Origin: a virus
Taxonomy: Duplodnaviria; Heunggongvirae; Uroviricota; Caudoviricetes
Direction: 5' to 3' (one strand)
DNA length: 64,000 nucleotides
Virus record (IMG/VR): IMGVR_UViG_2880395615_000010
The position numbers are program-made. Each line of letters starts with the position of its first letter. The first letter of the stretch is position 1. Below, in pieces: positions 33,001 through 36,000 of the stretch.

Positions 33001-36000
33001 CGCTACCTGATTGCAGAGCGCCCACCAGGATAATTCAGCCAGCGATAATTCCCGTTCCTGTGCACCACTTATTGCGTGACGTATGACGTCAATCATCCAG
33101 GCTGTCAGATTTTGTTGAGCAAGCTGCCCGAGTGATTCGGATGTCTGGTCGCGCAGCTGGTTGTCGCAGTGCCAGCACAACACCATTGCGCCGGTACCGT
33201 AACGATGTATGACGGTTTCACTGTGGTGATAGTCTCCATGAGGCCACTGGCAGGATTTAACATGACGCAGGAGCCAGTCAGACAGTGCGCCAGCGCCGCC
33301 AGCAGCACGAATCACACGCTCATCGCTGAAAAATGGCAGTAATGATTTATCCTCCGCCAGCGGCTGGCGAACGGCAGGGACGACTCCGGACGGCAGACCG
33401 CGCATGCTTTTCGGTTCAGGCTCCACCAGCACTCGAGGGTTATGAAATACTTGCATGGATTCACAGCCCGGCCTAAGGACCACAAGCCCGAGTTCCGGTA
33501 CCAGAACAGGTCGAAGTAATATCCGCACGTTACCTCCAGATCCGTTGCTGGTATGTGCGGGATGGGCGCGGTGGGCGTTCGGAATAAGGGAGCCTGACAT
33601 AGATTATCCAGTGACGATAATCGAGGCTGAGGGCTTTCTTAATCTCGTATCCGCGTCTGCGGTAGTTATGAATTAGCCATTCGGCCTGTTCTTCAGTACA
33701 TGGTGGGTGTTGGTACCAGTCGGTTTTAAATGCGTGTGAACGCCGCCCATGCCGGATGGCAAGGTCGGTATCAGAATTGTGAAATTTGGTTTTGTGCGCC
33801 ATCTGTTTTCTCTGCTGGCGCAGCAGGTGTCAGGTGTTCAGGCTGACGTGCGAATTGTAAACCAGAATGCCAGGAAAAAACAAAACCCGCCGAAGCGGGT
33901 TAAGTGCGGGTGCGTTGAGGATGCCTGACTCATCAGAGGTGGCGAGGGATTTCTCCCTCGCCTGGTCTCTTACTCCTCAGGTTCGTAAGCTGTGAAGACA
34001 GCGACCTCCGTCTGGCCGGTTCGGAGTCGTACCTCGCAGAGGTCTTTCCTCGTTACCAGTGCCGTCACAATGACGGTTAAACAGATGACGATCAGGGCGA
34101 TAAGCATCGCCTTTTGCTGCTTCATAGCCTGCTTCTCCTTGCCTTTCGGCACGTAAGAGGCTAACCTACGTGTGTAGAGCATAGATATGGCCTCAGATTA
34201 ATGTTAAGCGTCTTGCCGGACGCGTAATGTTAACTGGGGCTTTTCTCTATCTGCCTTTTGGTGTTCATGCCTGAGACAGATAGCCTCAAGCACCCGCAGC
34301 AATTCTACTTAACTCTCCTTTTCCCGCAAACCGTTTTTATCCCCAGCGGCAAATCGAATACACCACCAGCGTCACCGCCATCGCAATTCCTACCGTTGTG
34401 AATGCCTCAGGCCAGGTCATTGATTCACCTCCTGCGACAGTTCAGGCAACGCTTCCAGTGATGCTTTCACAAACCACGCTGCCTGAACTATAACGCCATG
34501 GATCCAACGCAAATCAGCATCGCGATCTTTCTTTTTCATCTTTTCGCTACTTAAAGCCTGGCTTATGTGGCTGCGCACCAGGTCTTCATGTAAATCCTTC
34601 GCATCCTCAATGGTGAAACCACCAGGCAGAAGAGCCGGAGTTACCGGAGAGCTGGTTGACGCTTCCGGGATTTTCCGAAAATTATTGGTTGACGAATCTT
34701 TATTTTCCCGAAAGTTTCCGGACTGAAGCATGGCTTCGCGGCAATCGTTCCAGCCTGTAGCGTATGCAGCCGCTTTGCTGCTGCCTTCAACTGGCGCATC
34801 CTGCCAATACATTTCTTCCGGCACTATCGGCGCTGGAGGGGCGGCAAATAGATATCCGCCAAAGTCAGGAAGCTCTCCAATGGCCTGTACGAACTTTTGT
34901 TTGCCTACGTCAACTCCTAATGGGTAATGAGCTATAATCTTTGCCACCGGCTCTGCTTCCAGCGATGCCAGCGCAATCCGTGCCAGTTCCATTTGTTCAC
35001 CACGGGTAAGCCCGTTTTCAAGCGGATTTTTAATGAACAATTCAATACGTTCTTTGGTAATAGTGGTCATGTGTTACTCCTTAACCCGCAGTGCTTTCAA
35101 CTGATGAGGGGAACAAAATCTTTTCATCAAACCCTGCATTCATATCATGAACAGCAACACACCAATCCATCGACGAACGATTATCAAGAGCCTCCATGAT
35201 TTCATCCATGCGGCGTAGGTCATACAGGTAAATGCTTTTATCGCCAATGGTGTAAAAGCCAATTTTTTTCGGTGATGGACAGCGATCAAGAACTTCCTGT
35301 AATTCGTTCAACCATGCCCGTTCTTTTTTTGTCAAAGTTGCCATATCAGTTTTCCTTATACGGATTAATTTTATTGTGCAGTGTGTTGAACGACGCCCAT
35401 ACAACGTCGGTATACAATTCAGTAACTGGCTCAATTATTTTCCCGATTGCCCAGACAAAAATTAGAGGGGATATCGGTATCATCAATACGATAAACAGAA
35501 TGAGAAACCAAAATTCTGTCGCCCTACTTTTTTGCGGATATTCTTTTCTGAATAATGTAGTCATTTCTTACCGCCCTTTCGGGCGGCCTCCCGACATTAA
35601 TCGTTGTGGTAACTCATGGCTTCATTTGCAGCATCAACCGGATCAACCTCCCACCAGCAATAATTTGGTGCGTTTCCTTCAGGTGTCCACGGTTCTAATT
35701 CATTTTTTGCCACATTCTCGTCGCCAGTAATTTTAAAAATCTGCTCAGAGAATTTTTCACCCACTCGTTATATTTTTCAGTGTTAATAATTTTCTGTGTA
35801 TTTGACATAGATATACCTCCAGTTAAGGATTAAATTTTATTTACAGTGCTGAACTTAATTATTCAGATTTGGATTATGCTTTCTCTTCACGAAGTTCCGA
35901 TTGTTAATTTGGCTCACAACAGCACCTTCTGAAAATTACCCTGATAGAAAGCCAGTACACGCTGCATAGCTTCGCTCTTCCGGCACTCGCTACAGATTAT

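What the first reader, a model, noticed from the sequence alone, without database searches (positions are those of the whole stretch)
33970..34200. hok/sok-type type I toxin-antitoxin module in the nin-like region
Seen: a 51-aa ORF that matches Hok/RelF-family toxins as recalled, with a strong AAGGAG RBS, an in-frame upstream extension (mok-like) and GC-rich hairpins in the 3' UTR (fold-back region). Established: hok is controlled by an antisense Sok RNA encoded in its leader, which would lie on the plus strand at about 34130-34200. The sok promoter and transcript cannot be confirmed by eye.
Basis: partly seen in the sequence, partly recalled or inferred. Interest (0 to 1): 0.42.

Follow-up and report, generated by a model that had tools for sequence, protein, structure and literature searches.

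The report
Intact prophage hok/mok/sok toxin-antitoxin locus
This is a complete copy of the well-known hok/sok "host-killing" toxin and antisense-RNA antidote, sitting in a lambdoid prophage of E. coli; about nine in ten sequenced E. coli genomes match this stretch, so it is ordinary.

Summary
Window 33970-34125 (minus strand) encodes a 51-aa Hok toxin (Pfam HOK_GEF 79 bits; PHROG 251 "MokW-like host killing" 114 bits). It differs from the HokD sequence of the K-12-type locus by one residue. A 70-aa in-frame mok extension starts at ATG 34182.

The full locus is larger than the finding, about 33875-34330. It has every regulatory element of the hok/sok family:
- a weak hok promoter;
- an mRNA 5' end (tac) that pairs with a 3' fbi element, with compensatory changes across 31 loci;
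- a leader matching Rfam RF01794 at 117 bits;
- a sequestered mok SD;
- a stable 3' hairpin and a terminator.

Sok is predicted on the plus strand at about 34174-34244. Its promoter (-35 34139-34144, -10 34162-34167) is identical to the sokW promoter of Sakai prophage Sp5.

The locus is 93% identical to hokW-sokW and matches 4953 of 5426 complete E. coli genomes. It is already known and of low interest.

One side observation may be worth a look. The 16 nt that pair with the Sok 5' tail are by far the most variable part of the locus among near-identical copies.

The parts
34302..34330 (-). hok (mok-hok) promoter: weak -35 TTTGCG (34325-34330), 17-nt spacer, -10 TAGAAT (34302-34307)
   Evidence: Coordinates. 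A TAnAAT-like hexamer lies at a fixed 6-7 nt before the conserved GGG start in essentially all loci that carry a recognisable tac. The consensus scan did not report it, so the promoter is inferred.
33878..34295 (-). Full-length mok-hok mRNA (about 418 nt), from +1 at G 34295 to the terminator U-run
   Evidence: The Rfam RF01794 match starts at 34295. The 5' end is conserved in 31 loci. The fold has z = -7.4. The ends are predicted, not mapped.
34284..34295 (-). tac element (GGGUGCUUGAGG) at the mRNA 5' end
   Evidence: It pairs with fbi in the MFE fold. A duplex of -17 to -26 kcal/mol is predicted in all but 3 of the 35 loci compared. Compensatory changes occur at pair 4-404: UA in 19 loci, CG in 11.
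34247..34283 (-). Leader hairpin 1. Its 5' arm can instead pair with tac, giving the metastable hairpin of the nascent RNA
   Evidence: Helix 2: 92.9% of cells paired, 3 pairs with double-sided changes. The 40-nt nascent RNA folds tac onto nt 19-29.
34236..34243 (-). ucb / anti-SD (AAAGCCCC). Its complement is the GGGGCUUU 3' end of Sok
   Evidence: Seven of its eight bases (AAGCCCC) are invariant and the eighth nearly invariant in 31 loci. It pairs with the mok SD region in the full-length fold and with tac in 60-110-nt 5' fragments.
34190..34240 (-). Sok-target hairpin of the leader. It sequesters the mok SD (GAGG 34191-34194) in the full-length RNA. Its complement forms the Sok hairpin
   Evidence: Helix 5: 89% of cells paired, 6 pairs with double-sided changes, almost all Watson-Crick and so valid on both strands.
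33970..34182 (-). mok reading frame (70 codons), here in frame with hok, with SD GAGG 8 nt upstream
   Evidence: It is 90% identical to the Sp5 mokW/hokW product. In the Rac copy and in L011/L012 a 1-nt insertion puts mok out of frame with hok.
33970..34125 (-). hok toxin gene, 51 aa, with SD AAGGAG at 34135-34140
   Evidence: Pfam HOK_GEF 79.3 bits. PHROG 251 'MokW-like host killing' 114 bits. PGAP names the corresponding gene in a record whose 471-bp stretch is 100% identical HokD.
33941..33962 (-). Stable 3' UTR hairpin (GGCGAGGGAGAAAUCCCUCGCC), expected to be the protective 3' end of the processed mRNA
   Evidence: Helix 16: 97.2% of cells paired, 3 pairs with double-sided changes. The protective role is inferred from the R1 system (PMC9841398).
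33908..33920 (-). fbi element (CCUCAA-C-GCACCC), complementary to tac with one bulged C
33875..33901 (-). Intrinsic terminator of the hok mRNA (AACCCGCUUCGGCGGGUU followed by a U-run)
   Evidence: (terminator scan).
34139..34167 (+). Sok promoter: -35 TTGCCT (34139-34144, overlapping the hok SD on the other strand), 17-nt spacer, -10 TAACCT (34162-34167)
   Evidence: It is identical from -35 to -10 to Sp5 sokW. The sokW promoter-less mutant was made with primers YO-421/422, whose sequences alter TAACCT. The generic consensus scan did not find it, because the -10 matches only 3 of 6 positions.
34174..34244 (+). Predicted Sok antisense RNA (about 71-75 nt): unpaired 5' tail, long GC-clamped hairpin, GGGGCUUUU 3' end
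   Evidence: The fold has z = -4.4. The same architecture is predicted in all 31 loci. The length agrees with the 71 nt of complementarity reported for sokW. The transcript ends are inferred.

Best explanation
This is an intact hok/mok/sok type I toxin-antitoxin locus of the prophage hokD/hokW lineage, carried in the nin-like region of a Qin/Rac-like lambdoid prophage.

Proposed mechanism, step by step:
1. A weak constitutive promoter makes a stable mRNA of about 418 nt. Its 5' end (tac) pairs with its 3' fbi element. In this closed form the mok SD is buried against the ucb/anti-SD, so neither mok nor hok is translated. The fold and covariation are shown here; the translational consequence is inferred from plasmid R1.
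2. Slow 3' trimming back to the stable 3' hairpin removes fbi. The 5' end then refolds and exposes the mok SD and the Sok target. This step is inferred; the refolding is only partly reproduced in silico.
3. The short-lived Sok RNA of about 71 nt is made from a promoter that overlaps the hok SD on the other strand. It pairs with the leader across the mok start, blocks mok translation and hence the coupled hok translation, and marks the duplex for RNase III. This is inferred from R1 and from Sp5 sokW.
4. When Sok synthesis stops (loss of the element, transcription shut-off, or prophage induction), Sok decays and Hok is made. Hok inserts into the inner membrane and stops growth or kills the cell.

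The most likely biological role in this setting is the one shown for the 93%-identical hokW-sokW: earlier and stronger lysis and about two-fold more phage release on induction. Prophage retention and exclusion of other phages are possible additional roles.
For: - Toxin: Pfam HOK_GEF 79 bits and PHROG 251 114 bits. It differs at one residue from the HokD sequence of the K-12-type locus L007. Mok-Hok is 90% identical to the experimentally toxic MokW/HokW.
- Leader: Rfam RF01794 scores 117 bits against a gathering score of 59.
- Closed fold: tac/fbi are paired in the MFE, z = -7.4.
- Conservation of the fold over 31 loci from Escherichia, Kluyvera, Citrobacter, Pantoea and Photorhabdus: 86.5% of cells are paired against 39-46% when partners are slid, and 31 pairs show double-sided changes against 10-19 slid. 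The tac/fbi pair 4-404 is UA in 19 loci and CG in 11.
- Alternative pairings: the tac metastable hairpin is the MFE at 40 nt, and tac/ucb is the MFE at 60-110 nt with the mok SD then unpaired.
- Sok: the promoter is identical to sokW. Its fold has z = -4.4 and the architecture is conserved in 31 loci.
- Experimental precedent in Sp5 (PMC8621323): HokW is toxic, sokW acts from its own promoter and in trans, it depends partly on RNase III and Hfq, and it increases phage release.
- Context and ubiquity.
Against: - Nothing was measured for this copy. No transcript, toxicity or antitoxin data can be obtained with these tools.
- The generic sigma-70 scan reports neither the Sok nor the hok promoter.
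- In the 371-nt 3'-truncated RNA the 'open' tac/ucb conformation is 9.6 kcal/mol above the predicted MFE, and the true processing site is unknown.
- As summarised in bioRxiv 10.1101/2025.08.07.668861, three chromosomal hok loci did not mediate post-segregational killing.
- The Sok 5' tail differs from sokW at several positions, so kinetics may differ.
- The two NCBIfam Hok HMMs that hit score below their curated cut-offs.
Confidence: 0.9

Rival explanations
1. The locus is structurally intact but functionally silent. It would be a selfish remnant that is transcribed and kept permanently repressed, contributing nothing to the phage or host, as was concluded for several chromosomal hok loci.
For: Chromosomal hokA, hokB and hokC loci were reported not to mediate post-segregational killing or rifampicin activation (summarised in bioRxiv 10.1101/2025.08.07.668861). 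Decayed relatives exist: L006 has lost its tac, the K-12-type hokD (L007) keeps only the CDS behind relBE, and L044 has a frameshifted hokC.
Against: Every element is intact here, and compensatory changes preserve the helices across genera, which argues for ongoing selection. The 93%-identical Sp5 locus is active and gives a measurable phenotype.
Confidence: 0.1
2. The main role is defence or retention rather than help with lysis. Either Hok is released when an infecting lytic phage shuts off host transcription (abortive infection or exclusion), or it kills cells that lose the prophage (addiction).
For: R1 hok/sok reduces T4 plating (cited). hok genes are enriched about four-fold in prophages. 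The Sok/hok stability differential would work the same way in any transcription shut-off (inference).
Against: No enrichment of hok next to defence systems was found. For the closest characterised homologue, the demonstrated phenotype is increased phage release on induction. Excision of a prophage from a single-copy site gives little scope for classical post-segregational killing (inference).
Confidence: 0.3
3. The 'sok' RNA is the minus-strand feature that Rfam reports at 34120-34295. On this reading the antitoxin is encoded on the same strand as hok.
For: The RF01794 hit is on the minus strand.
Against: The matched stretch starts at the hok mRNA 5' end, contains the mok SD, the mok ATG and the hok SD, and ends at the hok start codon. 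It is therefore the sense-strand leader (alignment). The sokW clone that complemented in trans is bounded by primers YO-406 and YO-541 and relies on sokW's own promoter, which reads antisense to hokW. A same-strand RNA could not pair with the leader.
Confidence: 0.02

Closest known systems
hokW-sokW of Sakai prophage 5 (Stx2 phage VT2-Sakai), E. coli O157:H7 (PMC8621323)
   Same: About 93% DNA identity over 90% of the 471-bp query. The 70-aa Mok-Hok product is 90% identical and in frame in both. The Sok promoter is identical from -35 to -10, and the tac, fbi, leader hairpins and SDs are the same. Both lie in the early region of a lambdoid prophage, and the same conserved 27-aa ORF sits just upstream.
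   Different: In the hok part (51 aa) five residues differ: I34L plus four near the C-terminus. Two more differ in the mok extension. The Sok 5' tail and its target differ at several positions. The sequence after fbi diverges: the window has its own CG-rich terminator, shared with the Rac copy. The host prophage here is Qin/Rac-like, with DicF, DUF968, RusA and a DUF1133 Q-like gene, and is not an Stx phage.
hokD (relF) of the Qin cryptic prophage, E. coli K-12
   Same: The toxin differs by one residue, I34L. PGAP annotates the window's gene as hokD. The prophage type is the same, with DicF in the window.
   Different: In the K-12 arrangement (L007) relB-relE lie immediately upstream, and homology with the window begins only at about 34139, 14 nt before the hok ATG. 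That copy therefore has no hok promoter, tac, mok, Sok promoter -10 or Sok. The window carries the complete form.
hok/sok (parB) of plasmid R1, the family paradigm
   Same: The element order and logic are the same: tac, ucb, mok SD, mok, a Sok promoter overlapping the hok SD, hok, a 3' hairpin and fbi. The leader passes the Rfam family model.
   Different: DNA similarity is too low for full-length blastn matches to typical plasmid hok loci; only 43-75-nt patches align. HokW, 90% identical to the window's toxin, is 44% identical to R1 Hok. In R1, mok is in a different frame from hok (from memory of the R1 sequence, not tested here). The carrier is a plasmid, where the role is post-segregational killing.
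hokC (gef)/mokC/sokC chromosomal locus
   Same: The toxin is about 80% identical (L015-L021). The tac is the same (GGGUGCUUGAGG) and the fbi is related. The in-frame mok extension is like K-12 MokC (from memory, not tested here).
   Different: The Sok-target hairpin is shorter, with an 18-20-nt deletion in alignment A2. The location is chromosomal rather than in a prophage.

Membership tests
[quoted passage not shown] | Small (about 50 aa) single-pass membrane toxin with the Hok/Gef domain | tested here: met
   Pfam PF01848 scores 79.3 bits against a cut-off of 22, covering profile positions 1-42 of 42. PHROG 251 scores 114 bits.
[quoted passage not shown] | Overlapping upstream mok reading frame with its own SD, through which hok translation is coupled | tested here: met
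   A 70-codon ORF runs from ATG 34182, with GAGG 8 nt upstream. The GAGG is invariant in 31 loci. Translational coupling itself cannot be tested here.
[quoted passage not shown] | Conserved structured 5' leader (Rfam RF01794) | tested here: met
   117.1 bits against a gathering score of 59, full model 1-157, at 34120-34295 on the minus strand.
[quoted passage not shown] | Long-range tac/fbi pairing that closes the full-length mRNA | tested here: met
   It is present in the MFE and recurs in all but 3 of the 35 loci compared. Helix 1 is 90% paired, with 3 pairs showing double-sided changes.
[quoted passage not shown] | mok SD sequestered by ucb (anti-SD) in the closed form | tested here: met
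   GCC at mRNA nt 56-58 pairs with the GGC that overlaps the SD, in the full-length MFE. These pairs never vary, so there is no covariation evidence either way.
[quoted passage not shown] | Refolding to a tac/ucb 'open' form after 3' processing | tested here: inconclusive
   tac/ucb (GGG-GCUU with AAGC-CCC) is the MFE for the first 60-110 nt and frees the mok SD. In the 371-nt truncated RNA it lies 9.6 kcal/mol above the MFE, which instead shows the tac metastable hairpin. The processing site is unknown.
[quoted passage not shown] | cis-encoded antisense Sok RNA with its own promoter inside the mok/hok leader, having a 5' tail, a hairpin and a U-rich end | tested here: met
   This is met at the sequence level. 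The promoter is TTGCCT-17-TAACCT, identical to sokW. Its fold has z = -4.4 and the architecture recurs in 31 loci. Existence of the transcript cannot be tested with these tools.
[quoted passage not shown] | Toxicity of Hok and its neutralisation by Sok | not testable with these tools
   Shown only for the Sp5 homologue (PMC8621323).
NCBIfam NF007279 (Hok family toxin, subfamily model) / NF007290 (HokA equivalog) | HMM score at or above the curated cut-off | tested here: not met
   49.1 bits against 73, and 38 bits against 89. I take these to be models of narrower subgroups (inference). The family-level Pfam threshold is passed, and PGAP names the protein HokD.
K-12 hokD (relF) locus as arranged in Qin | hok CDS directly downstream of relBE, lacking its own leader, mok and sok | tested here: not met
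   The window has the full leader. Homology to the K-12-type locus L007 starts only at 34139. The protein is HokD-like (50 of 51 residues) but the locus architecture is the intact one.

The most novel reading that the evidence does not exclude
The 16 nt of the hok leader that pair with the single-stranded 5' tail of Sok (window 34174-34189, spanning the mok start codon) behave as a hypervariable 'specificity cassette'. Among 56 distinct phage-borne transcripts that encode Hok proteins at least 98% identical, this segment shows 0.33 mean pairwise difference, against 0.05-0.07 for the rest of the leader, and it falls into discrete allele classes. The reading is that diversifying selection or allele exchange keeps the multiple hok/sok copies of one genome (median 2, up to 11 matching places) mutually orthogonal, so that each Sok controls only its own prophage's hok. 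The alternative is simple lack of constraint on this unpaired segment. The evidence does not separate the two.
Probability: 0.3. Interest if true: 0.3.

Novelty: already known. Interest (0 to 1): 0.08.

Why it matters
It matters little for discovery. The locus belongs to one of the best-studied antisense-RNA systems, and its closest homologue (hokW-sokW) has been characterised.

It does have practical value for annotation:
- Public records annotate only the hokD or MokW coding sequence here. None of the three records inspected carries a sok feature, and the Rfam 'sok' match falls on the hok strand. The true antitoxin gene is therefore easily mis-stranded or missed.
- This copy shows the complete form of the locus that survives only as a truncated hokD behind relBE in E. 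coli K-12.

If the hypervariable Sok-tail observation reflects selection for orthogonality, it would give a natural set of non-cross-reacting antisense/target pairs. It would also help explain how many hok/sok copies can coexist in one genome.

Tried and rejected
- Generic promoter scan. It found neither the Sok nor the hok promoter, because the Sok -10 TAACCT matches only 3 of 6 positions. Its one hit (TTAACA-18-TATGCT, 34207-34178, minus strand, inside the leader) is at chance level (1 found, 0.5 expected). The promoter assignments therefore rest on identity with sokW and on positional conservation.
- Truncated-mRNA folds. I expected the tac/ucb open form as the MFE. The tac metastable hairpin is favoured instead, by 9.6 kcal/mol. 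This is reported as inconclusive.
- isrK (27.8 bits against a gathering score of 50), rsmX and CsrC matches on the hok 3' UTR. All are sub-threshold and are driven by the hairpin-plus-terminator shape. Rejected as identities.
- NCBIfam Hok models score below their cut-offs.
- (alignment fold of Sok) used wrongly guessed locus coordinates and is uninformative. It was replaced by helix 5 and by the per-locus folds. The automatic U-run count also failed, because the MFE pairs the U-tract. The conserved GGGGCUUU end was read directly from the sequences.
- Co-residence test of the tail hypothesis. Three multi-copy genomes have different tails and one has identical tails. Inconclusive.
- A search for a second hok/sok copy in the window found none at Rfam gathering threshold.
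- MAFFT mis-registers the 5' half of fbi by one column in Photorhabdus, which lacks the bulged C. Some 'not paired' cells in helix 1 are therefore alignment artefacts. The per-sequence duplexes show the pairing is kept.
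Full report
**1. What is in the sequence**

On the minus strand, the ORF listing finds a 70-aa ORF at 33970-34182. An internal ATG at 34125 opens a 51-aa product, MKQQKAMLIALIVICLTVIVTALVTRKDLCEVRLRTGQTEVAVFTAYEPEE.
- The product matches Pfam HOK_GEF over the whole 42-position profile (79.3 bits, cut-off 22).
- It matches PHROG 251 'MokW-like host killing' (114 bits).
- AAGGAG lies 9 nt before the hok ATG (34135-34140).
- The upstream ATG at 34182 has its own GAGG 8 nt upstream.

**2. The RNA anatomy**

Rfam RF01794 ('sok') matches 34120-34295 at 117 bits (gathering score 59), both in a local scan and across the whole window. The match is on the minus strand. It starts at the mRNA 5' end, runs through the mok SD, the mok ATG and the hok SD, and ends at the hok start codon. 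The model therefore represents the sense-strand leader, not the antisense RNA.

I folded the 418 nt from 34295 to the terminator U-run.
- The MFE is -169.8 kcal/mol, z = -7.4 against shuffles.
- The first 12 nt (GGGUGCUUGAGG, tac) pair with CCUCAA-C-GCACCC at 33908-33920 (fbi).
- That segment lies between a stable 3' hairpin (33941-33962) and an intrinsic terminator (33875-33901).
- In the same fold the mok SD region is paired with the invariant AAAGCCCC box (ucb, 34236-34243).

Short 5' fragments behave as the R1 model predicts.
- At 40 nt, tac pairs with the sequence immediately downstream. This is the metastable hairpin.
- At 60-110 nt, tac pairs with ucb and the mok SD is free.

In a 371-nt 3'-truncated RNA the tac/ucb form is 9.6 kcal/mol above the MFE. 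The activating refold is therefore only partly reproduced, and I score it inconclusive.

**3. Sok**

On the plus strand, TTGCCT (34139-34144), a 17-nt spacer and TAACCT (34162-34167) precede a sequence that folds (z = -4.4) into three parts. These are an unpaired 5' tail, a long GC-clamped hairpin and GGGGCUUUU. With a start near 34174 and an end near 34244-34248, the RNA is 71-75 nt.

The generic promoter scan does not report this promoter, because the -10 matches 3 of 6 positions. However, the -35-to-(-10) stretch is base-for-base identical to that of Sp5 sokW. In the Sp5 study:
- the promoter-less mutant was made with primers YO-421/422, whose sequences change TAACCT;
- it lost antitoxin activity, and sokW supplied in trans partially restored growth;
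- 71 nt of complementarity was reported.

**4. Comparative evidence**

A protein-seeded scan of species-representative genomes returned 47 loci, from Escherichia, Shigella, Kluyvera, Citrobacter, Pseudocitrobacter, Pantoea, Photorhabdus and Erwinia.

tac/fbi complementarity is predicted in all but 3 of the 35 loci compared, with coordinated changes: GGGUGC/GCACCC becomes GGGCGC/GCGCCC, and GAGG/CCUC becomes GAGA/UCUC.

I projected the window's own fold onto a 31-sequence alignment.
- 86.5% of cells are paired, against 39-46% when partners are slid by 1-3 columns.
- 31 pairs show double-sided changes, against 10-19 in the slid controls.
- No shuffle reached the observed covariation score (0 of 500).
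- The best-supported helices are tac/fbi, leader hairpin 1, the Sok-target hairpin (6 compensatory pairs, nearly all Watson-Crick, so valid for Sok too), the helix that pairs the hok start region with the end of the CDS, and the 3' hairpin.

Caveats:
- The structure was derived from one member of the alignment.
- MAFFT slips one column in the 5' half of fbi for sequences that lack the bulged C.

A -10-like hexamer (TAGAAT, TATAAT, TACAAT and similar) lies at a fixed distance before the conserved GGG in essentially all loci with a recognisable tac. This supports +1 at about 34295. Each of the 31 loci also yields a Sok with the same tail-hairpin-GGGGCUUU architecture.

**5. Context and identity**

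- Window 27849-39067 is 99.8% identical to a prophage of E. coli D1, apart from an IS911 that is present there and absent here.
- The gene order on the minus strand is: replisome organizer, DUF977, small ORFs, hok, a 90-aa ORF, DUF968, RusA, a DUF1133 (Q-like) gene, a methyltransferase and three tRNAs. 'Nin-like region' is a fair description.
- DicF (39873-39924) marks the prophage as Qin-like.
- The 471-bp query matches 4953 of 5426 complete E. coli genomes (3904 over at least 80% of its length), with a median of 2 and up to 11 places per genome. It also matches 79 phage records. Annotations include hokD, 'MokW protein', 'host killer protein' and mok/hok.
- The K-12-type hokD (L007) has relB-relE immediately upstream and shares homology only from 14 nt before the ATG. 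It lacks the whole regulatory leader, which the window retains.

**6. Mechanism and role**

I commit to the canonical scheme.
- An unstable Sok pairs across the mok initiation region of the processed form and blocks mok-coupled hok translation.
- Hok is made when Sok synthesis stops.

The fold, the covariation and the promoter identity are shown here. Processing, coupling, RNase III cleavage and toxicity are inferred from R1 (PMC9841398) and Sp5 (PMC8621323).

For the biological role I favour assistance to lysis and phage release on induction, which is the only role demonstrated for a near-identical locus. Phage exclusion or prophage retention are alternatives. A silent-relic reading is unlikely, given the compensatory conservation.

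**7. Novelty**

None for the finding itself. The family, the prophage location (hok is about four-fold enriched in prophages) and this very lineage are all described.

**8. A side observation**

Among 9 close copies, and then among 56 distinct phage-borne transcripts, the 16 nt complementary to the Sok 5' tail (mRNA nt 107-122, window 34174-34189) are the most variable stretch of the transcript.

| Region (56 transcripts) | Mean pairwise difference |
|---|---|
| Sok 5' tail target | 0.33 |
| Adjacent Sok-target hairpin | 0.07 |
| Sok promoter | 0.05 |
| hok third-codon positions | 0.013 |

- The hok third-position figure is biased low, because loci were chosen by protein identity.
- The tails fall into discrete allele classes.
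- Three genomes with several copies have different tails and one has identical tails.
- I found no description of this in the searchable literature.
- It may reflect selection for non-cross-reacting copies, or only lack of constraint. I report it as an untested lead.

Noticed in passing
window 34174-34189 (Sok 5' tail and its target, spanning the mok ATG): This is the most variable 16-nt stretch of the whole locus among near-identical copies. Mean pairwise difference is 0.33, against 0.05-0.07 in the rest of the leader, and the tails fall into discrete allele classes. They may be specificity alleles that prevent cross-talk between co-resident hok/sok copies. The co-residence test was inconclusive.
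   Followed up: partly
window 34120-34295 (-): The Rfam family named 'sok antitoxin' (RF01794) matches the hok sense strand, covering the leader from +1 to the hok start codon. It does not match the antisense Sok strand. Automatic annotation from this model would put the antitoxin on the wrong strand and at the wrong coordinates.
   Followed up: yes
window 34337-34420 (-): An unannotated 27-aa hydrophobic ORF (MTWPEAFTTVGIAMAVTLVVYSICRWG) has a start that overlaps the stop of the upstream 217-aa gene (ATGA). It is conserved at 81-100% with conservative substitutions in E. coli D1, L005/L010, Sp5 and L022. It has no hit in NCBIfam or PHROGs. It may be a small membrane protein.
   Followed up: partly
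window 33982-33988 (-), Tyr47 codon of hok: The Tyr codon UAC is followed by G, within UUACGAA. This is the tRNA-Arg-anticodon-like context that I recall (from memory, not tested here) as the TadA A-to-I editing motif, which would recode Tyr to Cys. TACGAA is invariant in all 31 aligned loci. Editing at the equivalent codon is reported for hokC, hokD and hokE (bioRxiv 10.1101/2025.08.07.668861).
   Followed up: partly
L007:900-1503 compared with window 34139: In the K-12-type hokD locus, relB-relE replace everything upstream of a point 14 nt before the hok ATG. The window therefore shows the complete form of the locus that K-12 retains only as a truncated CDS. L006 is a third state, a decayed leader with tac lost.
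   Followed up: yes
L002 (Rac copy), L011 and L012, compared with window 34141-34142: A 1-nt insertion (GG-CAAGG becomes GGTCAAGG) between the Sok -35 and the hok SD puts mok out of frame with hok in some close relatives. In the window and in Sp5, mok is in frame. This fits the view that mok translation matters, not the Mok peptide.
   Followed up: partly
window 39873-39924 (+); 29360-29549 (-); 29629-29875 (-): DicF sRNA (76.7 bits), STnc100 sRNA (132 bits) and three tRNA genes lie in the same prophage. In the D1 record the tRNAs are annotated Ile, Arg and Arg.
   Followed up: no
window 33880-33961 (-): The hok 3' UTR (hairpin plus terminator) gives a sub-threshold match to the IsrK model (27.8 bits against 50; E = 0.004 in the local scan). 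The two share a G-C-rich stem with an AAAUC loop. This is probably shape resemblance. A distant relationship between IsrK and a hok 3' UTR was not examined.
   Followed up: no
window about 37462-37465: The otherwise 99.8%-identical prophage of E. coli D1 carries an IS911-family insertion at this point, and the window lacks it.
   Followed up: no
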